From a virus, in IMG/VR virus record IMGVR_UViG_3300005882_000006: DNA of 37,745 nucleotides, one strand, 5' to 3'. Below, piece by piece: positions 1 through 37,745 of this stretch. The translations under genes and the position numbers were made by a program. Every line of letters starts with the position of its first letter. Position 1 is the stretch's first letter. The notes beneath the pieces were generated by a model. The model saw nothing but the letters and a program-made list of their open reading frames with translations, ran no database searches and was not told the origin of the DNA.

Positions 1-99
1 GTCATCATGCGGCGCAAACGGGAATAGTAACATTTCCTGCTCGATCATAGCACTTATAAAATTATCGGGCAAGCCCTTCTCATTTTTATACATCAAGTC
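1..99. repeat. 99-bp exact terminal overlap, copy 1 (identical to 37647..37745)
   Basis: Direct reading: bases 1-99 equal bases 37647-37745 with no mismatch. The repeat lies inside the terL reading frame, so the window is a circular genome opened within terL. Confidence 0.97.
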
Positions 100-1413
100 A
101 TTAGGTAGCCATATTCTACCATTTTCAAAATCAGGCACTAACCTTCTTATTTTTTCTATCTTTGATAGGCGTTTTTGTCCTTTAGGCGGCAACTCAGTAA
201 TAGGAAAACGATAATTCTCCTCATTCATTTTCTTCTTGATATAATGCTGGTCGCTTGATGGATTTATACCTTCATATCCAACACGAATTGGCTTGCCTGT
301 TAATCCTGACCACTTACGGTGCAAATCAAAAAGCTTTTGCACCCTTTCCGTTGGGTTTAGTCTCTCTCTCAATCCATCAATTAAATACATATTCTGGTCA
401 GGTGACAATGCCCACACCGCCATAGCAGTATAATCGTTATCATTCTTAATTGCATCCTCTTTACCTTCAGCAGGGTCAACCAACATGTAAAGATTACATT
501 CTTTCGGGTCAAAGTCCTTAATATAGAAGTAATTGAAAAACTCTTTCTTAAACTCACCACCGTCTAAAGGCGATGGCTCTTGTAAATACTGACCAGCATA
601 GTTATAACTCCCTAGCTCTCGGCGCTTTTGGTCTAGCACTTCACGGCTAAACCTTTCAGGAAACATCAAATCGCCGTCTTCTAAACGCCACTCCTTACCC
701 CTAATAGAATAGCTATAAGAACGATTGATTGCTTCTGCTGGTAGCTTTAAATGATACCAACCCTCATCCTTTAGTAGCTCTCCCGTTGGGTCATCCTCGT
801 TCAATCTCTGCATATTGAGAATAAACCGCCCTGTTTGCGGGTTGTTAAAACGCGAGAACAATGTACCTCGTATCGTATCAATGCAGTTCTGCCTTTGCAC
901 TTGGCTTGCTGCTTCGTCAGGGTTTAGAGGGTCATCGCAAATCCCTATATCACACCCCTCACCAGTCACTGATGACATGCCTGATGTATAGTAATGGCCT
1001 TGGTCTGTTAATTCAAAGAATTGCTTTTGGTTTTGGTCTTGTTTGATTGCTATATTAGGATAAAGAGATTTATACCAGCTTGAGTTAATAAGCTCCCTTG
1101 TTTTTCTCGTCATCTTACATGCTAGGTCAAACTTAAATGATGTGAGCATAAACTTAACAGATGGGTCTTGACCAAATGCCCATGCTGGGAATGCAACAGA
1201 CGTTGATAGCGTCTTAAGTGAGCGTGGCGGCATGTTTATAATTAGGCGCTTTATCTCCTTATCCCATACTGCTTGCAAATGCTCAGCAATACAGTCTATA
1301 TGCCAATTATGAAGATAATCTATAGACGGCTCTAATGTTGCTACCGCCTTGCCTGTAAATACTGATAGCTTTTGCCTACATAAGGCTTTGAAAGTATCAT
1401 TATCTATAGTCAT
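1..1413 (-). CDS. terL: Terminase large subunit, N-terminal 471 codons (ORF runs off the left edge and continues at 37646..37533)
   Basis: Manual translation of the minus strand from the ATG at 1413 (MTIDNDTFKALCRQKLSVF...) meets no stop down to base 1. It has a Walker-A-like INMPPRSLKT and a Walker-B-like GCDIGICDDP, plus nuclease-half acidic motifs (MLVDPAEG, DYTAM). The start overlaps the stop of the upstream ORF. It is absent from the ORF track because it has no in-window stop. Confidence 0.85.
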   Translation of the reverse strand, partial: MTIDNDTFKALCRQKLSVFTGKAVATLEPSIDYLHNWHIDCIAEHLQAVWDKEIKRLIINMPPRSLKTLSTSVAFPAWAFGQDPSVKFMLTSFKFDLACKMTRKTRELINSSWYKSLYPNIAIKQDQNQKQFFELTDQGHYYTSGMSSVTGEGCDIGICDDPLNPDEAASQVQRQNCIDTIRGTLFSRFNNPQTGRFILNMQRLNEDDPTGELLKDEGWYHLKLPAEAINRSYSYSIRGKEWRLEDGDLMFPERFSREVLDQKRRELGSYNYAGQYLQEPSPLDGGEFKKEFFNYFYIKDFDPKECNLYMLVDPAEGKEDAIKNDNDYTAMAVWALSPDQNMYLIDGLRERLNPTERVQKLFDLHRKWSGLTGKPIRVGYEGINPSSDQHYIKKKMNEENYRFPITELPPKGQKRLSKIEKIRRLVPDFENGRIWLPNDLMYKNEKGLPDNFISAMIEQEMLLFPFAPHDD

Positions 1414-1807
1414 TTAATATTCTTGGTTTTTGCTTACCAAAGGCTTCTCTTGCCGTGCTCAATATATTAAGCGCTGGCTGGTCAAGGTTTGCACATGTAG
1501 GGATATCACGCATAAAGTTAATGACACCTACATTCTCATCTATAGTCCACTTCAAGCCTTGCTCTGCTAATTGCTCTAATTGCCCGCGTATCTCTTTGGG
1601 CACTACTGGTATTGCTTTTGGCTTAACATGGTCTTTCATAGTGGGAGCTTTCTTAACCACCTTCTTATCATGTTTACTCTCACCAGCTTCTAACATTGCT
1701 ATCAAGTCAGCTTTCTTGTCAGTGGGCTTAAATTTAATCCCCTTGTCTTTTAAAGCGCTCCTTAATGCATGTACTGGCAATTGTTCCAATTCTACTGTAT
1801 CGGTCAT
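1400..1807 (-). CDS. Hypothetical DNA-binding protein with SAP/HeH-like N-terminal motif
   Basis: The N-terminus LPVHALRSALKDKGIKFKPTDKKADLIAML resembles a SAP/HeH (Rho-N-like) helix-extended-helix motif and is followed by a Lys-rich linker. The gene sits between terS and terL, and its stop overlaps the terL start. Confidence 0.45.
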   Translation of the reverse strand: MTDTVELEQLPVHALRSALKDKGIKFKPTDKKADLIAMLEAGESKHDKKVVKKAPTMKDHVKPKAIPVVPKEIRGQLEQLAEQGLKWTIDENVGVINFMRDIPTCANLDQPALNILSTAREAFGKQKPRILNDYR

Positions 1808-1816
1808 TTATCTCTC

Positions 1817-2164
1817 CTATACTTCATAACCCATTTTTTTTAGTAACTCTATATCCGCTGGCTTTACATCATTGTCATCTTTATCTACTAAGCGGCGCTC
1901 TTCTTTCTTGGTTTCTTTCCATCCCATTCTGGCCTTACTCCACCATATTAGCGCTGTGGTATCGCCTTCCATTGCTTTGGTGAATAGCCTTTCAGATATT
2001 TGCATGTTAGCTCTTGATGCTGCGTTATCTAACTCTTCCCTATAGTGCTTTGCTAAAGTATCTCTATTTATTCCTATTACTCTTGCTATACTGTCTTGAT
2101 CTATCCCAGCAGCGCTCATACTTTCTACTAATCGTCTCTTTTCATCATTAGGTCTGTGTGTCAT
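1817..2164 (-). CDS. Terminase small subunit (putative)
   Basis: An HTH-like segment IDQDSIARVIGINRDTLAKHY is followed by TTALIWWSKARMGWKE, a pattern typical of small terminases. The gene lies just upstream of terL. Confidence 0.55.
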   Translation of the reverse strand: MTHRPNDEKRRLVESMSAAGIDQDSIARVIGINRDTLAKHYREELDNAASRANMQISERLFTKAMEGDTTALIWWSKARMGWKETKKEERRLVDKDDNDVKPADIELLKKMGYEV

Positions 2165-2194
2165 TATTTTATTATGCCCAAATGTGTTATGTAA

Positions 2195-2506
2195 TTAAGC
2201 ATCTAGCCTATAGTAAAGAGTAGCGCCGCCCTTAACGCCTACATCTAAAGTAGTTGCCCCAGTAGCATCACCTACTACATCCATATAGGTTGTTGTACAG
2301 TCACTATCTACCAATGACACTCTATGGTCTTCTTCGGCTTTAATGATGCAAGTGCGTGTATCTTGGTTTAGCGTAATGCTTTCAACTGTGGTTGATGTTG
2401 TAGCGTCTTGTGTGCGTGCTTTTTGCGCTGATAAGTCTGCGATTGATACACTGCGCGAGTTATTTGTGCCAGTATTACCAAACTCATATATAACGATTGT
2501 ACCCAT
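2195..2506 (-). CDS. Hypothetical beta-rich protein, first gene of the late operon
   Basis: Track ORF with SD GAAGGAG upstream of the ATG at 2506. It follows the terminator and the promoter-like site. Confidence 0.5.
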   Translation of the reverse strand: MGTIVIYEFGNTGTNNSRSVSIADLSAQKARTQDATTSTTVESITLNQDTRTCIIKAEEDHRVSLVDSDCTTTYMDVVGDATGATTLDVGVKGGATLYYRLDA

Positions 2507-2524
2507 GTGTAATTCTCCTTCTGC

Positions 2525-2553
2525 ATTATATTAAACCATTAAGAGGTTTTAAA
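2525..2553 (-). promoter_or_regulatory. Sigma70-like promoter candidate for the late (packaging/structural) operon
   Basis: The minus strand reads TTTAAA-N17-TATAAT (perfect -10), about 20 nt upstream of the 2506 start and just downstream of the terminator. Confidence 0.4.
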
Positions 2554-2573
2554 CAAGTGCTAAAGCTTAGCTA

Positions 2574-2606
2574 CAAAAAAAGAACCCCGCAAGTTAAATC
2601 GCGGGG
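2574..2606 (-). terminator. Rho-independent terminator ending the early-left operon
   Basis: The minus strand reads CCCCGC-GATTTAACTT-GCGGGG followed by TTCTTTTTTT. Confidence 0.75.
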
Positions 2607-2708
2607 TATTAGTTTGAACAGAGTATTACTACTCTACTCTAGGGGAACTTAATTAATCCTTAATGTCATGCTCTGGTGCGCGGGTTAATCTTTTACGGGC
2701 AAGCACTG

Positions 2709-2840
2709 TCAAATCGCAGTCGTCAACGTCTTGTATATTATCCGTTTACCTTCTAAAAGCTCATATTCACCCATACCAACATATTTAAAAACAAATTTCT
2801 GGCCAGAAAAAAACCTTGTTAAGCATTCCCCTATAATCAT
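2709..2840 (-). CDS. Small ORF, 43 aa (MIIGECLTRFFSGQKF...), not in track
   Basis: AGGAAAGGA SD lies 7-8 nt upstream of the ATG at 2840. The ORF starts 27 nt after the Gly-Tyr ORF stop and is the last ORF before the terminator. Confidence 0.3.
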   Translation of the reverse strand: MIIGECLTRFFSGQKFVFKYVGMGEYELLEGKRIIYKTLTTAI

Positions 2841-2867
2841 CTATCTATCCTTTCCTAATATACCGTA

Positions 2868-3143
2868 TTAGCCATAGCCAGAGCCATCGCCATAGCCATA
2901 GCCAGAGCCATAGCCATAGCCAAGGCCATAGCCAGAGCCATAGCCAAGGCCAGAGCCATCGCCATAGCCATCGCCATAGCCAGAGCCATAGCCAGAGCCA
3001 TAGCCAAGGCCAGAGCCATCGCCATAGCCAAGGCCAGAGCCATCGCCATAGCCATAGCCAGAGCCATAGCCATAGCCATCGCCATAGCCATCGCCATAGC
3101 CAAGGCCATTATCTAATCTGTGTTTCTGTTTAATTTTGAGCAT
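2868..3143 (-). CDS. Gly-X dipeptide-repeat protein (12-aa basic leader plus (Gly-X)39-Gly, X = Tyr/Ser/Asp/Leu)
   Basis: Track ORF with AAGGAG SD 9 nt upstream of the ATG at 3143. The start overlaps the end of the upstream gene by 14 nt. Confidence 0.55.
   Translation of the reverse strand: MLKIKQKHRLDNGLGYGDGYGDGYGYGSGYGYGDGSGLGYGDGSGLGYGSGYGSGYGDGYGDGSGLGYGSGYGLGYGYGSGYGYGDGSGYG
2871..3107. repeat. Hexanucleotide microsatellite, 39.5 contiguous units (minus-strand GGC-NNT)
   Basis: Direct reading of plus-strand units GCCATA, GCCAGA, GCCATC and GCCAAG with no spacers. Each encoded residue uses a single codon. Confidence 0.95.
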
Positions 3144-3516
3144 GGGCTTTAGCTCCTTGAATTAATTTAGCCGCTTTATCTGTACACTCAGTAATTGAGT
3201 AATCCTCCACAATAACCTTACGAACAACAACACCCGAAACTTTACTATCATCAGATAGGCCATGATTGCAAACGCCCTCATACCAGCTTTCTGTTTTTAC
3301 AGCAGGCCTGTGATACCACACGCGGCGGCACTCCTTCAAAATACAACCTGTATCGTCTGCTTCCTCCAAATACCCCGCGTTAATGCCCTCATTTCTTGAG
3401 CGAACAATGACATACTTTCCAATCATGTTTTTAAACAAACTTGATTGTGTTTGCTGCCCTCCAATTAGATTTTGCAGGTCTTTTAGTTGTCCAATAGTTA
3501 AATCGTTAATATTCAT
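3130..3516 (-). CDS. Hypothetical protein (128 aa)
   Basis: Track ORF with AAGGAG SD upstream of the ATG at 3516. I cannot name a family for it. Confidence 0.6.
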   Translation of the reverse strand: MNINDLTIGQLKDLQNLIGGQQTQSSLFKNMIGKYVIVRSRNEGINAGYLEEADDTGCILKECRRVWYHRPAVKTESWYEGVCNHGLSDDSKVSGVVVRKVIVEDYSITECTDKAAKLIQGAKAHAQN

Positions 3517-3738
3517 TTTAATCTCCTTTGTTATGAATTTTTATTTACTCAATATAAAAATGGGCGGGTGAAGCTATTTCAACGCTGTGCACTTCACTTA
3601 ACAGGTGTTATGCGCGCCCCTGCATGGTTACACCACAGTCCATGCCCTGCTTTCAACCCCGCCAGCATCTCACCTCTGTTAGGGGCTAGTGTTCTTCTTC
3701 ATTACTCACCTATAGGTATTTGATTTGTTGTTATGTAA

Positions 3739-3987
3739 TCAGCGGGGTAGTGCAAAATATGCTTTTACAATTAAATCCCGTACTCCGTTGTTTTTTAGCA
3801 TCTGATTTCCAAATTTGTTGTATTGTTCTTCATGGTATTTTTTTAATCTTTCAATCCCTTCCTCTGCGCTTACTTTAGACTGATAAATTTTTGGCTGCCA
3901 GAAACCGCCTTTATTGGTTAGAACCAATATTCCCCAAGTGCCCTTATAAGTTTCGATTTCGTCTAGTTCTGGTTTTTCTTTTAACAT
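3739..3987 (-). CDS. Hypothetical protein (82 aa; start moved to the internal ATG)
   Basis: The track ORF begins at a GTG at 4032. The ATG at 3987 (MLKEKPELDE...) overlaps the stop of the upstream 44-aa ORF (ATGTTAA), which suggests translational coupling. Confidence 0.5.
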   Translation of the reverse strand: MLKEKPELDEIETYKGTWGILVLTNKGGFWQPKIYQSKVSAEEGIERLKKYHEEQYNKFGNQMLKNNGVRDLIVKAYFALPR

Positions 3988-4115
3988 GCTACCACCATAT
4001 ATAACATTACTGCTAAGCACATAAGACCGCACATAGCCAGCCCTATATCTTCTCTAGCTTTACGCTTTTTGTTTAAATACTCAGTAGCTGCATTAATTCC
4101 TGATTGTCTGTTCAT
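3981..4115 (-). CDS. Small tail-anchored membrane protein, 44 aa, not in track
   Basis: The product is MNRQSGINAATEYLNKKRKAREDIGLAMCGLMCLAVMLYMVVAC. AAAGGGGA SD lies upstream, the C-terminus is hydrophobic, and the stop overlaps the next start. Confidence 0.4.
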   Translation of the reverse strand: MNRQSGINAATEYLNKKRKAREDIGLAMCGLMCLAVMLYMVVAC

Positions 4116-4188
4116 TTTATTCCCCTTTCGTTATTCTTAATCTACACCACTTTATTTACACTGTAAAGCACTTTTTTATTTTATTTTT

Positions 4189-4800
4189 TTATAGCTTCGC
4201 TCCATTGTAGTAATCATTCCAGCTTATCTTGCATTCACGGCTACCTTGCTCTTTGGGGTTTTTAAGGCTTGCTTTTAGTTTATCCTGAACGCTCTTTGGC
4301 ATCTTCTCAAAGTGCGAGTAATCAGGCTTATGGATTTTTTTCTTCTCTTTTTCTGGTTTCAAGTCCTCAATCGCTTGGTGTAGCCAATTTTCAAATTCCT
4401 CTTCTGGCATTTCTTCTGAAGATTGCCTTAATTGCTCACGTTTTTTCTTTTGCTTTTCAAGTGTTGCGTTTCTTGCTGCAATCAGCTCTGGACTATGTTC
4501 CGATTTATTCTTTGCATCCTTTTCGCATAGTTGCAGTATGTCATGCGGAGTTGGTAGCTCTCTCTTTTCCCGCATCCACTTCATGAATGCCTTGGTTATT
4601 GCATCCCCATCATAGGCATGTAAAACCATTGAGAACCCGCTAACCATGTTTTCTAGGCTGTCAGGTTGCTTACCGTAAGTCTGAAAGATGTCGTAGCTCT
4701 GACGTATCAGCAAAGCTATCGTCTTCAAATTGTGCTTCCTTGGCGATTGCCCTCGCGATTGCTGCGTCTGCACGTTCGGCGTGAGTGAGTTGTTGTCCAT
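4189..4800 (-). CDS. Replication-associated hypothetical protein (start at ATG 4800, or TTG 4728 behind AAGGAAG)
   Basis: Track ORF 4189..4929 trimmed. It overlaps the upstream replication gene out of frame by 131 nt (59 nt with the TTG start). The C-terminal half is a charged K/E-rich coiled coil. Confidence 0.5.
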   Translation of the reverse strand: MDNNSLTPNVQTQQSRGQSPRKHNLKTIALLIRQSYDIFQTYGKQPDSLENMVSGFSMVLHAYDGDAITKAFMKWMREKRELPTPHDILQLCEKDAKNKSEHSPELIAARNATLEKQKKKREQLRQSSEEMPEEEFENWLHQAIEDLKPEKEKKKIHKPDYSHFEKMPKSVQDKLKASLKNPKEQGSRECKISWNDYYNGAKL

Positions 4801-5440
4801 TGCTATTTCCTTTCTTTGGTGCGTTAGGCCATTCAAACGAGTTTCTAAATGCTGCCACATAATCCTTGTATGTCTTTCCGTTGGATTTACAATAATCCTT
4901 AAACTTTTCCAAAAGCCTATGCTCGTCAATCATTAGATATTTCCCAGAAACTCGCTTTTCTGTTAGCCAATCCTGTATATGTAAAACTGACAAATCTTCT
5001 ATACTATTACCTTTACTATTACCTTTACTATTACCTTTACTATTACTTGTCACCCTTGCTTGACCCTTGCTAGGGTCATCTAAGGGTCTTAAATATTCTT
5101 GTTTTTCAAAGTCTTGCGGTATATTGTATTTTTTCAGCTCATCAATAATAGATTTGTGTGCTCTATTATTGTTACGTAAACTTTTTTGTTGGAATTTTAC
5201 AAATGACGGGATAAAAATCGTATTGTCATCTATATAATGGAGTTTATTTGAAAATGCTTCCAAGTCGGATTTGTTTATTTTCACACCTATATGAAAGCTC
5301 ATCGCATCGAAATCTGGTTCTATAATGCCAGCAAATGAACACTCCGCCAACAGGTATTCCCACAAGCATTTATGTTTTGGCGATAGCTTCCTATACCATG
5401 GGTTTCTAAATTTGTCGCTGTCTGTAAATCTTTTTGGCAT
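4670..5440 (-). CDS. Phage replication initiator / replisome-organizer-like protein
   Basis: The N-terminus FRNPWYRKLSPKHKCLWEYLLAECSFAGII...IPSFVKFQQ matches the pattern of phage replisome-organizer N-domains. A (NSKG)n linker separates two domains. Confidence 0.5.
   Translation of the reverse strand: MPKRFTDSDKFRNPWYRKLSPKHKCLWEYLLAECSFAGIIEPDFDAMSFHIGVKINKSDLEAFSNKLHYIDDNTIFIPSFVKFQQKSLRNNNRAHKSIIDELKKYNIPQDFEKQEYLRPLDDPSKGQARVTSNSKGNSKGNSKGNSIEDLSVLHIQDWLTEKRVSGKYLMIDEHRLLEKFKDYCKSNGKTYKDYVAAFRNSFEWPNAPKKGNSNGQQLTHAERADAAIARAIAKEAQFEDDSFADTSELRHLSDLR
5002..5048. repeat. 12-bp direct repeat x3.8 (TACTATTACCTT) inside the replication gene; candidate iterons
   Basis: Direct reading. The repeat encodes NSKGNSKGNSKGNS, and AT-rich sequence lies at 5090..5240. 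Confidence 0.8.
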
Positions 5441-5531
5441 GTCTGCCCCTTTCTGTTTAAAGGGTTAAGGTTGACTGGCCTGTTGAAACAGCAACAGCTT
5501 GCGGGAGGGATCAGCTCACACCAGCCAATTC

Positions 5532-5559
5532 ATATTATACGTGATTAATTCATTGTCAA
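5532..5559 (-). promoter_or_regulatory. Sigma70-like promoter candidate upstream of the replication genes
   Basis: The minus strand has a perfect TTGACA (5554-5559), a 16-nt spacer and TAATAT (5532-5537). A perfect TATAAT also occurs, but only 14 nt from the -35. Confidence 0.5.
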
Positions 5560-5572
5560 CAGAAGATTACAG

Positions 5573-5992
5573 TTAGCTTCTAAGCTCTTCTATTTCAACA
5601 TCGCACCGCCCTCGTAAAAATTCCTTCTCAAAGTGGTGCTCTCTATCTATGCCCATAACCTCAAATGTAGGCCATTTCACAAACTTATAGTTATCGTCTT
5701 TTAAAAGGCCAATACTCACCAAGGAATCAGCCGTGAATTTATGAATGCCAAACCCTACATTGTCCTCATCGAAATCGCCGTTACGTTCCATATAATATTT
5801 TAAATGTAACCTGATAGGGTTTTGAAATTGGTTTTTATTATACAAGCCTAAAGACTTTATATAATCATAGAATATCATCTTAGCATTGTGCTTTTCTCGA
5901 TGATGCCTATTAGCAAATGTATTTGCGTTTAGAGGGTAAGACTTCTTTTTTTTCTTACCAAGAATTATGCGTGTAGGTACTATGAACTTCAT
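5573..5992 (-). CDS. rusA: RusA-like Holliday junction resolvase
   Basis: Size 139 aa. The acidic motifs GDFDEDNVGFGIHKFTADSL and LLKDDNY fit the RusA D-x-D-N / K-x-x-x-D / DD pattern. Confidence 0.5.
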   Translation of the reverse strand: MKFIVPTRIILGKKKKKSYPLNANTFANRHHREKHNAKMIFYDYIKSLGLYNKNQFQNPIRLHLKYYMERNGDFDEDNVGFGIHKFTADSLVSIGLLKDDNYKFVKWPTFEVMGIDREHHFEKEFLRGRCDVEIEELRS

Positions 5993-6116
5993 TTAATTCT
6001 CTTTAAAAAAACATTCACCCCTGAAAGCCCGTTGCTCACTTTGATATATTTTTAGACTTTTAAAAAATGTTTTAAAATATATGTGGATTCTTTCTTTTAC
6101 AACGCAGGGGTAAATC

Positions 6117-7082
6117 TTATATGAGCTTCCCAGTCTGATTTTTTGCGGCCTTTAAATTCTTAACTGCCTGCCTGAAATACGACGGTTTCAACTCAATTCC
6201 CATGCCTTTGCGACCTAGCTCGACTGCGCCATAAACTTCGCTGCCAATACCCATAAACGGCGTAAATACAATATCATCAGGATTGCTCCAAAGATGAATG
6301 CAACGCTCAATCACATCCAATTGCAATGGCGATATATGCTGCTCATCCTTTTCATCCCTAGCACCTCGATATTGTAGAGTTCTAGATTGATTGATATCCG
6401 TCCATACAGGGCTTGCGTAACGCTGCCATACTTCGATTGAATGCCATTTTTTAGCTTCTTCTTCGCTCATGCGTTTAAGCTTGTTTTCTATAGGTTCTGG
6501 AGCTGCACCTTCTCCTATATAATACTCAAATCGTGGGTTGCCTTTACCATTGCCCACTGGCTCTTCATTATCGTTTGGCTTTCTAAATGTCACGATATAA
6601 TCAGCAAGCCCTTGGCCTGAAATTGTACTATCCTTTGACACTTGAGCATGTAAAAGTCTGATAGACTTTGTGCGTTGTTGAGCCACTACAGGATCTTTCC
6701 AAATGCACACCTCGCTTGAGAATATCCAGCCCTTTTCTTGAAATAGCCTGATAACCTCACCCCTAAAGTCACGCATACCTATAAAGCCGTCATGCGTTTT
6801 AGATGTTGGGAGCTGCATACAATGTACGCTTGCCAATCGCCCTTGTTTTGTAATTCTAAGCAATTGCTCCACTATATAGCCGTAATGTTTATAAAATGCT
6901 TCGCCTTCATTATTTGATATATCTCTGTCTGAATTAGAAAACTTATAAAGCCCCTCAAAAGGTGGTGAGTGTATAGAATATCCAATCGAATTTTCAGGAA
7001 TAGCTTTCATAAGCTCGCAGCTGTCTCCTTCATAAATTGCGTATTCTTTCGTTATTTCTTGATTGATTGCTTTTAAATCCAT
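6117..7082 (-). CDS. DNA amino-methyltransferase (N6-adenine or N4-cytosine, beta-class order)
   Basis: The catalytic motif SPPF (IHSPPFEGLY) is near the N-terminus and the AdoMet motif FTPFMGIGSE near the C-terminus. The start overlaps the helicase stop by 10 nt. Confidence 0.8.
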   Translation of the reverse strand: MDLKAINQEITKEYAIYEGDSCELMKAIPENSIGYSIHSPPFEGLYKFSNSDRDISNNEGEAFYKHYGYIVEQLLRITKQGRLASVHCMQLPTSKTHDGFIGMRDFRGEVIRLFQEKGWIFSSEVCIWKDPVVAQQRTKSIRLLHAQVSKDSTISGQGLADYIVTFRKPNDNEEPVGNGKGNPRFEYYIGEGAAPEPIENKLKRMSEEEAKKWHSIEVWQRYASPVWTDINQSRTLQYRGARDEKDEQHISPLQLDVIERCIHLWSNPDDIVFTPFMGIGSEVYGAVELGRKGMGIELKPSYFRQAVKNLKAAKNQTGKLI

Positions 7083-8445
7083 GATGGCATCTCCATTTTT
7101 TCTTGAGGGTTATATTGAGCAGTTTCACGCACTGCACCGCGTATATTATCTGCGCTTAAATCAGCCATATGCTTAACCATTTGATTCATCATATGTTGCG
7201 CTTGATGTTCTTTGCGTTTGATATTCTGCACTACGGCGCCTTCTAATTCGCTCGCCACAAAATGCGCGTAAACTTCTTTAGTTTGCCCGAAACGGTAAAA
7301 TCTACGTATGGCCTGATATATCTGCTCAAAACTATCATTTAAACCGACAAATACTGTATTGTTGCAGTGCTGCCAATTCATACCAAACCCGCAAATAGAA
7401 GGCTTAGTGACTAGCTTTGTAATATTGCCTTTTGCAAAATCTTCTAAAATCTGCTCTTTCTTGTGGTCAGGCATTGAACCAGAAACTTCTACAGCTCCAT
7501 CGATTCTATCGGCAAGCATTGCACTTTCATCATTAAGATTGCACCACAAAACCCAAACTTCATTAGGATTGTCATTAACAATCTCAACTGCCTTATTAAC
7601 TCTATCTTCAATAGTTGCCCTGCGGGCTGATAAACGCTCGCTCATGCTTTGAGCTTCTAGCGGGAATAATAAACCAGTATCCACATTTGCTTTATATTCT
7701 GCACCTACTGTGTGTTGTATTTGATGTAATTTAGGAAGGATATATTTTGAGCCATCATATCCCAAATCAGCAGGGCTTTGATACATAACAGACCACGAAG
7801 CCATCCATTTCCAAAATTCACTCTCAGCATGGCCTTTTAAACGCCAATCTTGCGTCTTTGCAGCGTCATGTACAAAGAAAGTAGAAAGCATGTCTGTATA
7901 GCTCATAATACCGCAGAATTGAGAATGATTGCCCAGCTCCATATAATCGTTGGGGCTAGGGGTTGCCGTTGCTGCAAGCCTATAGGGTATTTGTGAGCAG
8001 CTCTCTATAAGTCGCGTTCTAAAATGGCCTGAGTGATTTTTTAAAATACTACTCTCATCTAATACAACCCCACCATATTTTGACAAATCAAAATGCTCTA
8101 TTTTTTGATAGTTGGTAATCTGTATAGGGTGGTCACATCCATCATTAACATGAATAGCATCTATCCCGAATTTTTCAGCTTCTCTTTGCATTTGAGCGGC
8201 AACCGCTAATGGTGTAAATATTAGAACTGGTTTTTTTCTGCTTCAAATAATTCATTCGCCCACGATAATTCCTTAATAGATTTACCCAAGCCAGTACCAG
8301 CAAATATGGCAGCTCTACCTCGTTTACAAGCCCACGATATAATGTCGCGTTGAAAATCAAACGCATCATCCGTAATACCAGAAGCAGAAAAACCAACTGG
8401 CGGAGCTGTTTTAGATTTCTTGTTTAAAAATAAATTATAATCCAT
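7073..8445 (-). CDS. SNF2-family helicase, interrupted: needs a -1 shift at A_AAA_AAC (plus-strand T7 run 8231..8237)
   Basis: The N-terminal ORF (ATG 8445, AAAGGAAAG SD) carries motif I, FAGTGLGKS, and stops at 8221. The -1 frame continues KKPVLIFTPLAVAAQMQREAEKFG and then LDESSILKN (motif II), LAATATPSPN (III) and QAIRRFYRFGQ (VI). Confidence 0.8.
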
Positions 8446-8481
8446 CTTCTTTCCTTTCGTTACTAATATAGTTATTAACAA

Positions 8482-8572
8482 AGTAAATCAATGTCAACTA
8501 AATTTTTTTATTTTTTTCTGTTTACAGCGTAAAATAAATTTGATAAGTTTATTTTAACGAAAGGGGAATGAA
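8482..8572. promoter_or_regulatory. Divergent early control region
   Basis: The plus strand has TTTACA (8521-8526), N17 with TG, and TAAGTT (8544-8549) ahead of the 8573 gene. The minus strand has a perfect TTGACA (8492-8497) ahead of the helicase but no good -10. The region is AT-rich with T-runs. Confidence 0.35.
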
Positions 8573-8839
8573 ATGATTTATGAAGTATATGTAACAGGCA
8601 CAACAAAAGTTATAGCAGATGCCTACAATAGAGAAGAGGCTATAAATAAAGCTCAAGAGTATTGCGATGATTACTGTTTAGGTGGTGAAGCGATGGTTTT
8701 GGAGTGTGAGCTAGTTATCAGTGATGACGATAAGGAAACAAGTGAAGATATTATGTTTTACCCTACATGGGATGAAAACGAAGTATCTGACTATGGTCAA
8801 CACTGCGTATGGAATAAAACACAAACAGGGTGTAAATAA
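8573..8839 (+). CDS. Highly acidic early protein (88 aa), first gene of the rightward operon
   Basis: Track ORF with AAAGGGGA SD. It has 20 Asp/Glu against 6 Lys/Arg. Confidence 0.6.
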   Translation: MIYEVYVTGTTKVIADAYNREEAINKAQEYCDDYCLGGEAMVLECELVISDDDKETSEDIMFYPTWDENEVSDYGQHCVWNKTQTGCK

Positions 8840-9042
8840 TGAACTACGATAAAATAAGAGAAGCTCTGGATATAGCTGAGCAAAAAATATTATCAGTATC
8901 TAAGATGTTACCAGAAGATGAGGTTAATATGGCGCTTGATGGGATTTATTATATGCGCCGCTCAATGCTTATTGAAAGCGCGTCATGTATAAATGAGTTG
9001 CCAGAACCGAATATAACTAAAGTAGTGAGGGCTGTATTATGA
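8839..9042 (+). CDS. Hypothetical protein (67 aa)
   Basis: Track ORF with a TAATG overlap with the upstream gene. Confidence 0.5.
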   Translation: MNYDKIREALDIAEQKILSVSKMLPEDEVNMALDGIYYMRRSMLIESASCINELPEPNITKVVRAVL

Positions 9043-9081
9043 CACAAGAAGCAGAATGGTACGAAAAAATGGAGCTAAGTA

Positions 9082-9222
9082 ATGATTAAGCTATACAGTA
9101 TTAAAGACGCGAGACCAGAAGGTGATGCTGAAGAATGGGGAGAATACTTCATTCATTTGCTGAGTAAACGTGAAAACACAGTAACAGCGCGTGAGATGAT
9201 ACGCAGGGAGACTATGAAATGA
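9082..9222 (+). CDS. Small ORF, 46 aa (MIKLYSIKDARPEGDAEEWGEYF...), not in track
   Basis: GGAG SD lies 7 nt upstream. The stop overlaps the ATG of the 9219 ORF (ATGA-type coupling). Confidence 0.4.
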   Translation: MIKLYSIKDARPEGDAEEWGEYFIHLLSKRENTVTAREMIRRETMK

Positions 9223-9425
9223 TTAATTTTAAAGAGAAGTGGATAGCCAAAAGAATACACGTCTACGCTATGAGGAGTTTTAATTATGCTGAGTGTGTAG
9301 ATGCGGCTCAATTCGATTGGGACTGGCAACACGGAGAAGCTAGAAAGCGATTAGATAAATGCTTTCCAGAATGTGCGCCACTGGCGATTTTAGCAGGTAT
9401 AAATTTCGGTGGTATTAATGACTAG
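9219..9425 (+). CDS. Hypothetical protein (68 aa)
   Basis: Track ORF, coupled to its neighbours on both sides. Confidence 0.5.
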   Translation: MINFKEKWIAKRIHVYAMRSFNYAECVDAAQFDWDWQHGEARKRLDKCFPECAPLAILAGINFGGIND

Positions 9426-9528
9426 AGAAGAAATGAAAACACTAGTAAGTGATTTAACAATAGAAGAGCTTAATTTATTAGGCTTTGAAATTGGCGTTGA
9501 ATTAATGGAAAGAGAAGGAAGATTATAA
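9418..9528 (+). CDS. Small ORF, 36 aa (MTREEMKTLVSDLTIEELNLLGFEIG...), not in track
   Basis: The start overlaps the end of the upstream ORF. The stop TAA shares its last A with the ATG at 9528. Confidence 0.35.
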   Translation: MTREEMKTLVSDLTIEELNLLGFEIGVELMEREGRL

Positions 9529-10436: not shown

Positions 10437-10641
10437 AATAAAGTGGCACGAGTTGCCACGAGGAAAGAATATTCATTTCTTTACAGGCACTCAAGAGGAC
10501 TGGACTAAGAAACTCGAAGAAAATAGCTCAGCTTTTAAGTTAGCTAAGTTAGCAGGGGTTAAAGTTTTAAGAGCTTATAATAAGAATGTGGCAAAAGGTT
10601 ATTCAACAGTTCGCCAGTTTAATTTTTACTTTCAAAGATAG
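10423..10641 (+). CDS. Hypothetical protein (72 aa)
   Basis: Track ORF; overlaps the end of the upstream gene by 14 nt. Confidence 0.45.
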   Translation: MQINKIKWHELPRGKNIHFFTGTQEDWTKKLEENSSAFKLAKLAGVKVLRAYNKNVAKGYSTVRQFNFYFQR

Positions 10642-10652
10642 GAGATAGAGTA

Positions 10653-11096: not shown

Positions 11097-11097
11097 G

Positions 11098-13898: not shown

Positions 13899-13959
13899 CC
13901 GCGATTGATGATATTAAAAGATGTCTTGATAAACTTATGGAGGAGCTAAATGAAAACTA
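13899..13959 (+). repeat. 61-bp perfect direct repeat, left copy (cassette boundary)
   Basis: Identical to 16988..17048. It contains a gene 3' end remnant, a GGAGGAG SD and ATGAAAACTA. Confidence 0.95.
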
Positions 13960-15038
13960 CAATTATTGATAAAAATTATAAAGGATTGAAGCAGGTCGAA
14001 AATGGAGATTATGTTCTCAATGGCGACCTGGTTATAGAGGGAAATCTTGAGGTAAAACTTGACGATAGGCTTGTTGTAAAAGGATTTAATACAGTTAATG
14101 GTTGGATGAAAGTTGATAAATCAATCATTGTCGAAAAGTATCAGAAAGTCGGTGAGTATCAGGAAATCGGCGGGTCTCAGGAAATCGGTGAGTATCAGGA
14201 AATCGGCGGGTCTCAGAAAATCGGCAGGTCTCAGAGAATCGGCGGGTTTCAGGAAATCAGTGAGTGTCAGAAAATCGGCTGGTCTCAGGAAATCGGTGAG
14301 TATCAGGAAATCGGTGGGCGTCAGAATATCGGTGGGCGTCAGAAAGTCGGTGAGTATCAGGAAATCTGTGGGCATCAGGAAATCGGCGGGTCTCAGGAAA
14401 TCGGTGAGTATCAGAGAATCGGCGGGTTTCAGGAAATCGGTGAGTGTCAGAAAATCGGTAGGTATCAGGAAATCGGTGGGTCTCAGAAAATCGGCAGGTC
14501 TCAGAGAATCGGCGGGTTTCAGGAAATCGGTGAGTGTCAGAAAATCGGCTGGTCTCAGAAAATCGGCGGGTCTCAGGAAATCGGTGAGTATCAGAGAATC
14601 GGCGGGTTTCAGGAAATCGGTGAGTGTCAGAATATCGGTGGTAACTCTGACGTAAAAGCAGGACGCTGCGTCATGTTGTCAATCACAATTAAAGGCACGA
14701 TGAAAACAGGACTGAGGATTTTTGCAGGGACATGTAATTGGAGAGACATTTCGGAACAAGAAAAAACAATCACCTGCGCCAAAATGGAAGGCGGTGAGAT
14801 TTGCTACGGTATCTTAAAAGAAAGCGGTAACACTGGCGCTGGCCTTAATATATTCGACTGGCTTAATGAACGTGGATACCTCATCACCAAAGAGAAGCTT
14901 GATAAGATTGAGGGGTTGAAGAAATCTTTCACCCCCATAGACAAACTAGAAAGCTATGACGAATACATGACAGAAAATGAAGTGAATGCTTACAATCTAG
15001 CGTTACATGATGCTGTAAAGATACTTAAGGGGGAGTGA
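13950..15038 (+). CDS. Hexad-repeat (G-x-x-Q-x-I x27) beta-solenoid-like protein with unique N- and C-terminal domains
   Basis: Track ORF with GGAGGAG SD. The frame runs through non-repetitive flanks. The N-terminal LNGDLVIEGNLEV...VVKGFNTVNGWMKV is already beta-helix-like. Confidence 0.7.
   Translation: MKTTIIDKNYKGLKQVENGDYVLNGDLVIEGNLEVKLDDRLVVKGFNTVNGWMKVDKSIIVEKYQKVGEYQEIGGSQEIGEYQEIGGSQKIGRSQRIGGFQEISECQKIGWSQEIGEYQEIGGRQNIGGRQKVGEYQEICGHQEIGGSQEIGEYQRIGGFQEIGECQKIGRYQEIGGSQKIGRSQRIGGFQEIGECQKIGWSQKIGGSQEIGEYQRIGGFQEIGECQNIGGNSDVKAGRCVMLSITIKGTMKTGLRIFAGTCNWRDISEQEKTITCAKMEGGEICYGILKESGNTGAGLNIFDWLNERGYLITKEKLDKIEGLKKSFTPIDKLESYDEYMTENEVNAYNLALHDAVKILKGE
14151..14636 (+). repeat. Tandem 18-bp repeat x27 with near-identical 72- and 90-bp higher-order blocks
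   Basis: Direct reading: 14205-14294 vs 14475-14564 differ at 3 of 90 positions, and 14385-14456 vs 14565-14636 differ at 1 of 72. Confidence 0.95.
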
Positions 15039-37533: not shown

Positions 37534-37745
37534 TACACATCCAATACGCTTATTTCTTGACCCCAGTAATCACGCTCATTTGAAGCTACTCTCACCTTTG
37601 GGAATATCATGTTCATATCATATATCATAGACATAGCATCCATAAAGTCATCATGCGGCGCAAACGGGAATAGTAACATTTCCTGCTCGATCATAGCACT
37701 TATAAAATTATCGGGCAAGCCCTTCTCATTTTTATACATCAAGTC
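37533..37745 (-). CDS. terL: Terminase large subunit, C-terminal end (same gene as 1..1413; total about 508 aa once the 99-bp duplicate is removed)
   Basis: The track ORF 37533..37742 is in frame with 1..1413 through the 99-bp overlap. The stop TAA at 37533-37535 overlaps the portal ATG by 1 nt. Confidence 0.85.
   Translation of the reverse strand, partial: DLMYKNEKGLPDNFISAMIEQEMLLFPFAPHDDFMDAMSMIYDMNMIFPKVRVASNERDYWGQEISVLDV
37647..37745. repeat. 99-bp exact terminal overlap, copy 2 (identical to 1..99)
   Basis: Same as copy 1. The unique genome length is therefore 37,646 bp. Confidence 0.97.

What the first reader, a model, noticed from the sequence alone, without database searches (positions are those of the whole stretch)
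2868..3143. Strict (Gly-X)39 dipeptide-repeat ORF, Gly-Tyr rich, encoded by a 237-bp hexanucleotide microsatellite
A minus-strand ORF with a strong SD (AAGGAG 9 nt before the ATG) encodes the 12-aa basic leader MLKIKQKHRLDN followed by 79 residues of perfect Gly-X alternation. X is only Tyr (18), Ser (9), Asp (7) or Leu (5). Each residue type uses a single codon (GGC, TAT, TCT, GAT, CTT), which suggests a young, slippage-prone repeat that stays in frame. The [G/S]-Y-[G/S] triplets match the motif of FUS-type low-complexity domains, and Gly/Tyr-rich structural proteins and antimicrobial peptides are similar. I know of no standard phage gene like this. It is the last substantial gene of the early-left operon, lies just upstream of the packaging genes, and is followed by a 43-aa ORF and a strong terminator. 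Possible roles are a condensate or fibril former, a secreted or toxic peptide, or a purely DNA-level element near the packaging region.
Basis: partly seen in the sequence, partly recalled or inferred. Interest (0 to 1): 0.7.

Follow-up and report, generated by a model that had tools for sequence, protein, structure and literature searches.

The report
Phage Gly-Tyr repeat protein with Sm-like partner
The odd Gly-X repeat is a real, translated phage gene, and it always travels with a small Sm-like barrel protein as a widespread two-gene cassette that nobody has described, in which the repeat changes length and order very fast while keeping its glycine/tyrosine/serine/aspartate make-up.

Summary
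It is not an orphan. Its ATG lies 14 nt inside the 3' end of a DUF6948 gene (3130-3516). In 32 of 34 assessable related loci (DUF6948 identity 26-60%), including cultured Pectobacterium, Ralstonia, Iodobacter and Vibrio phages, the same arrangement recurs: DUF6948, an overlapping start, a short leader, a (Gly-[Tyr/Ser/Asp/Asn])n array of 27-129 residues, then a stop. Codon sets differ between loci (Gly GGC/GGT/GGG, Tyr TAT/TAC, Ser TCT/TCC/TCA/AGC) while the amino acids stay the same. Arrays are also fused in frame to folded domains elsewhere. Selection therefore acts on the protein. Arrays differ in length and order between phages whose flanks are 100% identical. DUF6948 is predicted (pLDDT 87) to be an Sm/LSm-like barrel, and the repeat protein is predicted to be disordered. 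No family model, defence model or paper describes the pair. The function is unknown. My favoured, inferred mechanism is a cytoplasmic multivalent Tyr "sticker"/Gly-Ser "spacer" polymer that works with the Sm-like partner. The non-coding DNA, secreted-peptide and RiPP readings are disfavoured.

The parts
3130..3516 (-). Partner gene: a 128-aa DUF6948 protein predicted to be an Sm/LSm-like beta-barrel with an N-terminal helix. It is the first gene of the cassette.
   Evidence: Pfam PF22253 DUF6948, E 1.7e-13, 50.9 bits against a cut-off of 27, plus a weak SM-ATX hit. AlphaFold2 on a 40-sequence alignment gives pLDDT 87 and pTM 0.74. The top 50 Foldseek PDB matches are all Sm/LSm. The exhaustive profile search finds 890 representative clusters.
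3153..3158 (-). Shine-Dalgarno AAGGAG for the Gly-X ORF, lying inside the 3' coding end of the DUF6948 gene, 9 nt before the ATG.
   Evidence: Read directly from the sequence. An SD-like core sits 3-13 nt upstream of the Gly-X ATG in 25 of 37 related loci, against 19% at random positions.
3130..3143 (-). The 14-nt overlap between the Gly-X ORF start (ATG 3143..3141) and the DUF6948 stop (TAA 3132..3130). This is an arrangement typical of translational coupling.
   Evidence: The same ATG-inside-the-upstream-gene geometry (ATG 8-14 nt before the stop, +1 frame) is seen in most related loci.
3108..3143 (-). The 12-codon basic leader MLKIKQKHRLDN (net charge about +2.6).
   Evidence: The leader is conserved in close relatives (MVKIKQRHQVNN, MLKIRQKYILSN, MLKIKEKHKAEN) but differs between distant clades.
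2871..3107 (-). The 237-nt hexanucleotide array (GGC-NNT)x39 plus a final GGC, encoding a 79-aa strict Gly-X core. X is Tyr 18, Ser 9, Asp 7 and Leu 5. The core has pI about 4 and is predicted to be disordered.
   Evidence: Homologous arrays occur in more than 40 loci, with different codon sets encoding the same amino acids.
2868..2870 (-). Stop codon TAA occupying an X position of the last repeat unit (GGC TAA). The DNA repeat ends exactly at the end of translation.
   Evidence: In 29 of 29 complete related ORFs the 6-nt periodicity ends at the stop codon, and in 19 of 29 the stop directly follows a final Gly codon.
2709..2840 (-). A 43-aa ORF between the cassette and the terminator. Its membership of the cassette is doubtful.
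   Evidence: It has only weak PHROG hits (E 2e-4). No equivalent follows the cassette in the Ymer, PhiPLPE or Vibrio phages, where a hairpin follows the array directly.
2584..2607 (-). Intrinsic-terminator-like hairpin (9 pairs, 6 of them G-C) followed by a T-run, closing the early/replication operon that ends with the cassette.
   Evidence: A promoter-like site at 2553..2525 follows it.

Best explanation
SHOWN: ORF 2868..3143 is a real protein-coding gene. It is the second gene of a conserved, mobile two-gene phage accessory cassette. Gene 1 encodes a DUF6948 protein with a predicted Sm/LSm-like small beta-barrel. Gene 2 starts at an SD plus ATG embedded in the last codons of gene 1, which implies coupled translation. 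It encodes a short leader followed by an intrinsically disordered, acidic (Gly-[Tyr/Ser/Asp])n polypeptide that runs to the stop codon. The array DNA is a hexanucleotide repeat that gains, loses and reshuffles units in frame (concerted evolution). Order and length therefore change even between phages with identical flanks. Selection preserves the reading frame, the boundaries and the Gly/Tyr/Ser/Asp composition. INFERRED (mechanism): because composition is conserved and sequence is not, the product acts as a low-complexity 'sticker-and-spacer' polymer in the infected cell's cytoplasm. The regularly spaced Tyr side chains (18 Gly-Tyr-Gly motifs here) would be the stickers, Gly/Ser the flexible spacers, and Asp would keep the chain soluble. 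The array, not the leader, is what always accompanies DUF6948. I therefore propose that the Sm-like partner, probably an oligomer, binds the array multivalently. This would give a two-component network, scaffold or condensate-like assembly that organises or sequesters some process during the early-to-middle phase of infection. Confidence that it is a translated gene of this cassette is about 0.9. Confidence in the multivalent-scaffold mechanism is about 0.3.
For: Coding and cassette. A DUF6948 homolog is followed at once by a Gly-[Y/S/D/N] array ORF in 32 of 34 assessable loci, and by other Gly-X arrays in the remaining 2. The same holds in cultured phages: Ymer-genus Pectobacterium phages, Ralstonia NK-7, Iodobacter PhiPLPE and Vibrio IKEMa6-1. 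The Gly-X ATG lies 8-14 nt before the DUF6948 stop in most loci. SD-like motifs occur in 25 of 37 loci against a 19% background. The repeat ends at the stop codon in 29 of 29 complete ORFs. Protein-level selection. Each locus uses one codon per residue, but the codon sets differ between loci (Gly GGC/GGT/GGG, Tyr TAT/TAC, Ser TCT/TCC/TCA/AGC, Asp GAT/GAC). The alternative frames read differently in different loci. Arrays are fused in frame to folded domains (P0031, P0002, P0007, DUF7666 proteins). One natural DUF6948 + Gly-X single-chain fusion has heterogeneous codons (P0237). Hypervariability. Contigs encoding an identical DUF6948 protein and an identical leader carry ORFs of 49, 52, 76 and 95 aa. 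Ymer and Amona have a 100% identical DUF6948 gene and 200-nt downstream flank, but arrays that differ in length and order. L062 has three tandem cassettes with products of 145, 185 and 143 aa. The cassette moves as a unit between genome neighbourhoods. Partner and physical properties. DUF6948 model: pLDDT 87, and all top 50 PDB fold hits are Sm/LSm. Gly-X protein: pLDDT 41 with no secondary structure. Its core has pI about 4 and contains no Lys or Arg. The array stays next to DUF6948 even when the leader is replaced by a 75-aa domain or when a C-terminal domain is added.
Against: There are no expression, interaction or phenotype data, so the mechanism rests on analogy. The Sm-like assignment rests on a predicted structure with marginal Foldseek E-values (4e-3 to 3e-2). 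The profile finds no PDB sequence match. The oligomeric state is unknown. DUF6948 is roughly neutral (pI 6.8), which is not what a classical RNA binder looks like. Similar arrays also occur without a DUF6948 neighbour (DUF7666 fusions in L064, and L065), so the partner is not obligatory for every array. About 9% Asp gives net negative charge, which opposes simple self-association. A single-sequence AlphaFold run cannot detect intermolecular beta or fibril structure. Some of the array length variation in metagenome contigs may come from assembly error: 5 of 13 close-relative contigs break inside the array. Multiples of 6 nt are expected from slippage alone.
Confidence: 0.6

Rival explanations
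1. Arms-race accessory factor (anti-defence or host-takeover decoy). In this reading the Gly-X polypeptide, presented or chaperoned by DUF6948, jams or titrates a host machine such as a protease/unfoldase, a Tyr-directed enzyme or an immune sensor. Its hypervariability would then reflect diversifying selection and not neutral repeat turnover.
For: The cassette sits in accessory 'moron' or nin-like positions and moves between genome neighbourhoods. The arrays differ between phages with identical flanks. The cassette is sometimes duplicated or triplicated (L002, L021, L062). It is absent from many related phages: no near-DNA relatives were found, and only 12 of 50,697 phage records carry DUF6948.
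Against: There is no hit to any PADLOC model or named family. High repeat mutability alone explains the variability. Composition, not a specific epitope, is what is conserved. No target is suggested by any neighbouring gene.
Confidence: 0.2
2. The physiological product is an Sm-like protein carrying a low-complexity tail, like eukaryotic SmD1/SmD3/LSm4. The tail would be joined either by occasional +1 frameshifting at the overlap (…CAA AAT TAA A…) or non-covalently, and it would simply tune the RNA-chaperone activity of the Sm-like ring.
For: The array lies in the +1 frame relative to DUF6948 in most loci. One natural in-frame fusion exists (P0237). The Sm/LSm-like fold is supported. From general knowledge, Sm, LSm and Hfq proteins commonly carry disordered Gly-rich C-terminal tails.
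Against: Every locus has its own ATG or GTG, usually with an SD. The frame relation is not universal: it is +2 in L021, L026 and L030, and 0 in L014. No conserved slippery motif was seen. Arrays with large N-terminal domains of their own (P0002) cannot be tails of DUF6948. DUF6948 is not basic.
Confidence: 0.1
3. RNA-level element. In this reading the (GGN-NNY)n transcript, with GG every 6 nt, is itself the ligand of the Sm-like protein, acting as an autoregulatory site or sponge. The peptide would be secondary.
For: The Gly codons force a GG dinucleotide every 6 nt in all loci. From general knowledge, Sm-like rings such as Hfq bind short periodic RNA repeats. The two genes are always on one transcript.
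Against: The amino-acid repertoire (Y/S/D) is conserved across different codon sets. The start, SD and stop boundaries coincide with the repeat. In-frame fusions to folded domains exist, and so does a fused array with heterogeneous codons. None of this is needed for an RNA ligand.
Confidence: 0.06
4. Silk-like or amyloid-like structural material. In this reading the Gly-X alternation forms stacked beta-sheets that build a fibre or plug, possibly associated with the virion.
For: Strict Gly-X alternation is the hallmark of fibroin crystalline regions. Ralstonia phage NK-7's copy is auto-annotated 'fibroin heavy chain-like protein'. In the Ymer phages the cassette lies beside the tail-fibre gene.
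Against: The X residues are bulky or charged (Tyr, Asp) and not Ala/Ser. The arrays are short (27-129 aa) and variable in length. The gene sits in early or accessory regions, not in structural operons, in the window and in L061 and L063. There is no signal peptide. The monomer prediction is disordered.
Confidence: 0.05
5. A non-coding DNA microsatellite (a packaging-, recombination- or replication-related repeat), or a secreted, RiPP or bacteriocin-type peptide.
For: Four of the six frames are open across the repeat. In this window it lies near the packaging genes. The leader-plus-core layout superficially resembles a RiPP precursor.
Against: The DNA motif is not conserved between loci but the protein pattern is. 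The position relative to the packaging genes is not conserved. The boundaries match the translation signals. There is no modifying enzyme, protease, transporter or signal peptide in this or related loci. The core length varies between identical phages, which is unlike RiPP cores.
Confidence: 0.03

Closest known systems
FUS/EWS/TAF15-type low-complexity (prion-like) domains with [G/S]Y[G/S] motifs (from general knowledge)
   Same: Both have dense, regularly spaced Tyr residues flanked by Gly/Ser: 18 Gly-Tyr-Gly motifs in 79 residues here. Both are predicted to be disordered. In both, composition is conserved and sequence is not. Both are paired with an RNA-binding-type fold, here an Sm-like partner.
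   Different: There is no homology. The window protein shows strict period-2 Gly-X alternation, lacks Gln and Pro, and is rich in Asp (net charge about -7). It is tiny (9 kDa), phage-encoded, and a separate polypeptide from its folded partner. Phase separation is untested.
Sm/LSm proteins with Gly-rich dipeptide or low-complexity tails (SmD1/SmD3 Gly-Arg repeats, LSm4 tail) and Hfq variants with Gly-rich C-terminal extensions (from general knowledge)
   Same: A small Sm-like barrel is functionally coupled to a Gly-X dipeptide repeat. One natural covalent fusion exists (P0237).
   Different: Here the tail is normally a separate, translationally coupled protein. X is Tyr/Ser/Asp (acidic) and not Arg (basic). 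The Sm1/Sm2 sequence motifs, ring formation and RNA binding of DUF6948 are unverified, and DUF6948 has an inserted helix and its own set of invariant residues.
Silk fibroin heavy-chain crystalline repeats (GAGAGS/GAGAGY)
   Same: Both show strict Gly-X alternation with Ser and Tyr among the X residues, are encoded by highly repetitive DNA with extreme codon bias, and are prone to length polymorphism. GenBank auto-annotation of the NK-7 homolog uses this name.
   Different: There is no Ala. Asp and Tyr dominate. The protein is 50-100 times shorter, has no secretion signal and no terminal domains, and is cytoplasmic and phage-encoded. It is not homologous to fibroin.
Hexanucleotide-repeat-encoded dipeptide-repeat proteins (C9orf72 GGGGCC giving poly-GA/GP/GR) and the EBNA1 Gly-Ala repeat
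   Same: A 6-nt DNA repeat is translated into a Gly-X dipeptide polymer. The only PDB sequence matches to the window protein are (GS)n linkers and a GR20 dipeptide repeat. EBNA1's repeat is, like this one, a viral Gly-X repeat.
   Different: The C9orf72 products are pathological and arise from non-AUG translation. The window ORF has a canonical SD plus ATG, a conserved partner and a selected mixed X composition. The EBNA1 repeat is embedded in a large protein and contains only Ala.
Bacterial and phage simple-sequence contingency loci and collagen-like (Gly-X-Y) phage tail-fibre repeats
   Same: Both involve slippage-prone tandem DNA repeats inside genes, with rapid length change between near-identical genomes.
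   Different: The unit here is 6 nt, so slippage never switches the frame on or off. It changes valence and length only. The periodicity is 2 residues, not the 3 of collagen. The gene is not part of a tail-fibre gene.

Membership tests
   The window gene at 3130..3516 is DUF6948 (E 1.7e-13). The same pairing is found in 32 of 34 assessable loci, in cultured phages, and with the short 96-aa DUF6948 forms.
   The window has a 14-nt overlap and AAGGAG 9 nt upstream. SD-like motifs occur in 25 of 37 loci against a 19% background.
   The window has a 12-aa leader, a 79-aa core and no tail. X is Y/S/D plus 5 Leu, and Leu is rare in the family (12 of about 1330 X residues).
FUS-type [G/S]Y[G/S] low-complexity domain | A high density of [G/S]Y[G/S] triplets in a disordered region with few charged residues. 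| tested here: inconclusive
   The protein has 18 GYG triplets in 79 aa and is predicted to be disordered. It also has 7 Asp and no Gln, unlike the SYGQ composition of FUS. There is no sequence homology.
FUS-type [G/S]Y[G/S] low-complexity domain | Tyr-dependent phase separation or hydrogel formation. | not testable with these tools
   This requires purified protein or live-cell imaging.
Sm/LSm superfamily (for the partner protein) | The Sm fold: an N-terminal helix followed by a strongly bent five-stranded beta-sheet. | tested here: met
   The AF2 model has pLDDT 87 and its order of elements is helix, three strands, an inserted helix, two strands and a C-terminal helix. All top 50 Foldseek PDB hits are Sm/LSm, with probability about 1.0 and target-normalised TM-score up to 0.77. 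This rests on a predicted structure only.
Sm/LSm superfamily (for the partner protein) | Sequence membership (Sm1/Sm2 motifs or a significant profile match), hexameric or heptameric ring formation, and RNA binding. | tested here: inconclusive
   There is only a weak Pfam SM-ATX hit (E 0.04) and no PDB sequence match for the profile. Ring formation and RNA binding cannot be tested here. The protein's pI of 6.8 is not basic.
Silk fibroin heavy chain | Gly-X alternation with X mainly Ala/Ser, a secretion signal, conserved terminal domains and very large size. | tested here: not met
   The alternation is present, but there is no Ala, no hydrophobic signal sequence, no terminal domains and only 91 aa. 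The name in GenBank for the NK-7 homolog is a compositional artefact.
RiPP precursor / class II bacteriocin | An adjacent maturation enzyme, leader peptidase or exporter, and a conserved leader motif such as a double-glycine leader. | tested here: not met
   The neighbours are DUF6948, small hypothetical ORFs, replication genes and terS. No enzyme or transporter is present here or in related loci. The leaders are not conserved between clades. Core length varies between identical phages.
Phase-variable contingency locus | A repeat unit that is not a multiple of 3, so that slippage switches the reading frame on and off. | tested here: not met
   The unit is 6 nt. All observed length differences are multiples of 6, and no frameshifted copy was seen.
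Known anti-phage defence or counter-defence proteins | A match to a curated defence or anti-defence model. | tested here: not met
   Neither protein has a PADLOC hit. PADLOC holds defence models, not anti-defence models, so a counter-defence role is not excluded.

The most novel reading that the evidence does not exclude
Tailed phages carry a widespread two-component system for building intracellular assemblies. It would consist of an Sm-like oligomer (DUF6948) and a separately translated, hypervariable (Gly-Tyr/Ser/Asp)n 'sticker-spacer' polymer. Together they would form a condensate- or gel-like compartment or scaffold in the infected bacterium. Hexamer slippage would continuously retune the valence, and so the material properties, of the polymer. 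This would be a prokaryotic-virus counterpart, evolved independently, of eukaryotic Sm/LSm-plus-low-complexity-tail RNP-granule scaffolds.
Probability: 0.25. Interest if true: 0.85.

Novelty: categorically new. Interest (0 to 1): 0.72.

Why it matters
If this is right, a conserved and mobile phage gene pair has gone unnoticed. The DUF6948 family has 890 clusters at 50% identity, and cultured phages of Pectobacterium, Ralstonia, Iodobacter and Vibrio carry the pair. It was missed because low-complexity filters hide the repeat protein from BLAST. Gene callers also pick the wrong frame or strand, or skip the ORF altogether. It would be one of the simplest natural low-complexity proteins known: two-residue periodicity and essentially four amino acids, with a dedicated folded partner. 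Natural variants differ only in repeat number and order. That makes it a ready-made system for testing how valence and composition govern the function of disordered proteins in bacteria. It would also allow a test of whether phages use condensate-type organisation outside the jumbo-phage nucleus. The system is directly testable because the Ymer-genus phages and their hosts are in culture. Practically, the result shows that annotation pipelines systematically mishandle such genes and that metagenome assemblies break at them.

Tried and rejected
1. Near-DNA search of window 1-12000 against 50,697 phage records found no match, so close annotated relatives could not be used.
2. tblastn of the Gly-X protein against phages found nothing, because the low-complexity filter removes the query. 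I worked round this by anchoring on the DUF6948 neighbour.
3. Exact-product look-up of the Gly-X ORF returned 'not on record'. The cause is that the JGI gene call on the sister contig took the Ala-Met frame.
4. Pfam, PHROG, NCBIfam and PADLOC scans of the Gly-X protein gave only sub-threshold compositional hits (TrAA12, a serine-rich protein).
5. The PDB sequence search gave nothing for the DUF6948 profile. For the Gly-X protein it gave only (GS)n linkers and GR20.
6. A single-sequence AlphaFold2 run on the Gly-X protein gave pLDDT 41. This is consistent with disorder but says nothing about possible intermolecular structure.
7. A BFVD fold search returned only other uncharacterised DUF6948 proteins.
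8. I considered programmed +1 frameshifting or readthrough that would fuse the two ORFs, because the +1 frame relation is so common. I set it aside as the main model because every locus has its own start codon, usually with an SD, and the frame relation is not universal.
9. I considered a universal DUF6948 requirement for all such arrays and rejected it. The DUF7666-array fusions and L065 lack a DUF6948 neighbour, by both hhalign and Pfam.
10. 'Length differences are multiples of 6' is only weak evidence for coding, because slippage or mis-assembly of a 6-nt unit gives the same result. I relied instead on the codon-set differences, the translation boundaries and the in-frame fusions.
11. Seven literature searches (DUF6948/DUF7666, fibroin-like phage protein, glycine-tyrosine repeat phage, Sm-like with glycine-rich phage, motif strings, the Ymer paper) found no description of the pair.
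Full report
**1. The observation**

The minus-strand ORF 2868..3143 exists exactly as described.
- It encodes 91 aa: MLKIKQKHRLDN followed by 79 residues of uninterrupted Gly-X alternation.
- There are 40 Gly, all GGC. X is Tyr 18 (TAT), Ser 9 (TCT), Asp 7 (GAT) and Leu 5 (CTT).
- AAGGAG lies at 3158..3153, 9 nt before the ATG.
- Tandem Repeats Finder scores the DNA at 300 over 2869..3102.
- The array has 59% G+C in a 41% G+C window.

An open frame is not informative here, because four of the six frames are open across the repeat. The case for a gene has to rest on other evidence.

**2. What the window is**

The window has a 99-bp terminal direct repeat, and a large-terminase ORF spans the two ends. 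It is therefore a complete, circularly assembling phage genome of about 37.65 kb. The genome is known from two JGI metagenome samples.

It encodes portal, major head, virion and tail proteins, a helicase, a DNA methyltransferase, RusA, an exonuclease and a terS-like protein. It has no tRNA genes and no close DNA relative among 50,697 phage records.

The Gly-X ORF closes the replication/accessory operon. A 43-aa ORF and a terminator-like hairpin (2607..2584) follow it.

**3. It is not an orphan: a conserved two-gene cassette**

The upstream gene is a DUF6948 protein (Pfam E 1.7e-13). I used it as an anchor and retrieved 31 viral-contig loci and 5 genome loci whose DUF6948 proteins are 26-60% identical to the window's.
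- In 32 of the 34 loci with enough downstream sequence, a Gly-[Tyr/Ser/Asp/Asn] array ORF follows immediately.
- The other two loci, which have only partial DUF6948 matches, carry Gly-Leu or Gly-His/Gln arrays.
- A few loci are duplicates or near-duplicates (L017 = L034; L023-L025), so the number of independent observations is slightly lower.

The geometry is conserved. The array ORF's ATG lies 8-14 nt before the DUF6948 stop in most loci (for example aaATGtcaaagctcaaTAA). An SD-like core occurs upstream in 25 of 37 loci, against 19% at random positions.

Across 42 such ORFs:
- the leader is 4-23 aa;
- the core is 27-129 aa;
- the tail after the last Gly is 0-3 aa;
- X totals are Ser 473, Tyr 426, Asp 287 and Asn 44, and everything else is rare.

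In 29 of 29 complete ORFs the 6-nt periodicity of the DNA stops at the stop codon. In 19 of them the stop sits in an X position directly after a Gly codon, as in the window (GGC TAT GGC TAA).

Cultured phages carry the cassette:
- Eight Ymer-genus Pectobacterium phages, where it is annotated 'hypothetical protein'.
- Ralstonia phage NK-7, annotated 'fibroin heavy chain-like protein'.
- Iodobacter phage PhiPLPE, where the array is present but unannotated.
- Vibrio phage IKEMa6-1, whose record has no annotation.

The cassette occupies different neighbourhoods:
- the end of the replication module, before terS, in the window and in L061 and L063;
- an isolated two-gene unit between oppositely oriented tail-fibre and membrane-protein genes in Ymer;
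- the genome end, before HNH/RecE/Bet, in PhiPLPE.

The two genes therefore move as a unit.

**4. Protein or DNA?**

The codon sets, however, differ between loci:
- Gly is GGC in most loci but GGT in L008 and GGG in L006, L013 and L014.
- Tyr is TAT or TAC.
- Ser is TCT, TCC, TCA or AGC.
- Asp is GAT or GAC.

The alternative frames translate differently in different loci: Trp-Leu and Ala-Met in the window, Arg-Leu and Ala-Thr in PhiPLPE. Only the Gly-[Y/S/D] reading is conserved.

Similar arrays are fused in frame to folded domains in other small phage proteins. One DUF6948 protein (P0237) carries a C-terminal Gly-X tail in the same chain, encoded with heterogeneous codons (GGT/GGC/GGG, GCG/GCT). 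There the alternation is maintained without any DNA homogeneity.

Together with the conserved start, SD and stop boundaries, this shows that selection acts on the translated product.

I treat 'length differences are multiples of 6' as weak evidence only, because slippage or mis-assembly of a 6-nt unit gives that result anyway.

**5. Hypervariability**

- Contigs encoding an identical DUF6948 protein (P0082) and an identical leader (MLKIKEKHKAEN) carry array ORFs of 49, 52, 76 and 95 aa with different internal order.
- Among isolate genomes, the Ymer-genus arrays are 162 to 270 nt long.
- Ymer and Amona have a 100% identical DUF6948 gene and 200-nt downstream flank. Their arrays differ by 18 nt and in order throughout the interior, while the first and last units are shared.
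- L023, L024 and L025 share identical junctions, but the two complete arrays (L024, L025) have 110 and 94 residues.
- L062 carries three tandem cassettes with near-identical flanks and products of 145, 185 and 143 aa.
- Five of 13 close-relative contigs end inside the array. This shows that assemblies break there, and it is a caveat on metagenome-derived lengths.

The picture is concerted evolution by in-frame gain, loss and reshuffling of hexamer units, at a rate far above that of the flanks. Selection acts on composition and boundaries, not on sequence. The family is old. Only the individual units are 'young'.

**6. The partner and the physical nature of the product**

A 40-sequence DUF6948 alignment shows a strongly conserved core (…GKYVIVRSRNEGINAG…ADETGVIL…ARRLWYHKP…ESWYEGVANHGLS…) with 24 invariant positions.

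AlphaFold2 gives a confident model (pLDDT 87). A low-confidence N-terminal helix is followed by a five-stranded barrel with an inserted helix and a C-terminal helix.

All top 50 Foldseek matches in the PDB are Sm/LSm proteins (E 4e-3 to 3e-2, probability about 1, target-normalised TM up to 0.77). This is consistent with a weak Pfam SM-ATX hit.

Sequence-level membership of the Sm superfamily, ring formation and RNA binding remain untested. The protein is about neutral (pI 6.8). Neither the PDB by sequence nor the viral structure library supplies a functional annotation.

An exhaustive profile search finds 890 representative clusters, and almost all of them end with the domain.

The Gly-X protein is predicted to be fully disordered (pLDDT 41, no secondary structure). 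It has a basic leader (+2.6) and an acidic core (-7.3, no Lys or Arg), and it has no hydrophobic signal sequence.

When the array protein has a 75-aa N-terminal domain in place of the short leader (P0002), or an added C-terminal domain (P0031, P0007), it still sits directly after, and overlaps, a short (95-96 aa) DUF6948 gene. The constant companion of DUF6948 is therefore the array, not the leader.

The pairing is not universal. DUF7666-array fusions and the L065 arrays lack a DUF6948 neighbour.

**7. How it most likely works**

Shown:
- It is a translationally coupled gene pair.
- The product is disordered, acidic and Tyr-studded.
- Selection acts on composition.
- Valence is hypervariable.
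- The cassette is mobile and sits in accessory positions.

Inferred: the product behaves as a sticker-and-spacer polymer, with Tyr as stickers, Gly/Ser as spacers and Asp for solubility. The Sm-like partner, probably oligomeric, would engage its repeated motifs, giving a multivalent two-component assembly (scaffold or condensate) in the cytoplasm during early-to-middle infection. I put about 0.9 on the gene/cassette identity and about 0.3 on this mechanism.

Rivals:
- an arms-race decoy or inhibitor, with the variability driven by diversifying selection (0.2);
- an Sm-like protein whose low-complexity tail is supplied in trans or by occasional frameshifting (0.1);
- an RNA-level ligand for the Sm-like protein (0.06);
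- a silk- or amyloid-like structural material (0.05);
- non-coding DNA, or a secreted or RiPP-type peptide (0.03).

**8. Comparison with what is known**

The closest analogies are:
- FUS-type [G/S]Y[G/S] low-complexity domains;
- Sm/LSm proteins with Gly-X or low-complexity tails;
- fibroin Gly-X crystalline repeats;
- hexanucleotide-encoded dipeptide-repeat proteins.

Each shares one or two features and fails on others, and none is homologous (see the membership table). No Pfam, PHROG, NCBIfam or PADLOC model covers the Gly-X protein. Seven literature searches, including the paper describing the Ymer phages (PMC11445585), found no description of the pair.

The sequences are in public databases, but as unrecognised, mis-called or unannotated ORFs. 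As a kind of system it appears to be new.

**9. Verdict**

The key context was missed: a conserved Sm-like partner and a widespread family. The DNA-element and secreted-peptide options are disfavoured.

Interest is 0.72. The pair is a widespread, experimentally tractable and undescribed phage module with an unusual evolutionary mode. Its function is still only inferred.

Noticed in passing
window 13950..15038 (+); DNA repeat 14138..14641: A second repeat protein. This 362-aa ORF has a centre made of about 28 tandem hexapeptides (Q-[E/K/R]-I-G-x-[S/Y/F/C]; 18-nt period). It hits only phrog_5353, of unknown function (E 7e-18). It looks like a hexapeptide-repeat (beta-helix-like) protein.
   Followed up: partly
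window 1..99 and 37647..37745; terL across the ends: A 99-bp terminal direct repeat is present, and a large-terminase ORF (about 510-540 aa) runs across the window ends. The window is therefore a complete, circularly assembling phage genome of about 37.65 kb.
   Followed up: yes
L041 827..1081; L043 2805..3080 (-); L039 1173..1409: Annotation pipelines mishandle the array. The JGI gene call on the sister contig took the Ala-Met frame (84 aa). An NCBI MAG annotation called a 91-aa ORF on the opposite strand. Iodobacter phage PhiPLPE leaves the array unannotated between gp84 and gp83. tblastn with the default low-complexity filter finds nothing.
   Followed up: yes
L062 2305..4432: Three tandem copies of the cassette are present. 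Each is a 95-aa DUF6948-like gene followed by an overlapping Gly-X protein with a C-terminal domain. The flanks are nearly identical and the products are 145, 185 and 143 aa. L002 has two array ORFs after one DUF6948 gene, and L021 has array ORFs on both sides of it.
   Followed up: partly
L045, L047, L050, L052, L053 (contig ends): Five of the 13 contigs of the closest relatives terminate inside the Gly-X array. Short-read metagenome assemblies break at this repeat, so array lengths taken from metagenomes should be treated with caution.
   Followed up: partly
L036 2368..2768; L031 3403..3456; L022 2726..2905: Other dipeptide-type arrays occur near DUF6948-like genes. L036 has (Gly-His/Gln/Arg)n and L031 has (Gly-Leu)n, each downstream of a partial DUF6948 match. 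L022 has a (Gly-Arg)n-reading stretch upstream of its DUF6948 gene. The reading frames and the significance of these were not established.
   Followed up: no
P0006, P0054 (L064 2261..2734); P0040 (L065 2612..3333): Gly-[Tyr/Ser/Asp/Asn] arrays also occur fused to a DUF7666 domain in a prophage-like early region next to an integrase. They also occur as two consecutive array proteins in L065. In both cases there is no DUF6948 neighbour. The array is therefore a more general portable module in phage small proteins.
   Followed up: partly
window 4670..5440 (-), DNA 5002..5046: A 256-aa ORF upstream in the same operon contains a perfect 12-nt x 3.8 tandem repeat that encodes (GNSK)n (…SNSKGNSKGNSKGNS…). 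This is another short in-frame coding repeat in the genome.
   Followed up: no
window 4189..4929 and 4670..5440 (-): The two listed ORFs overlap by 260 nt (4670..4929) in different frames. The 246-aa one starts at TTG and has a weak helicase-loader hit. The real start of the downstream gene is probably internal.
   Followed up: no
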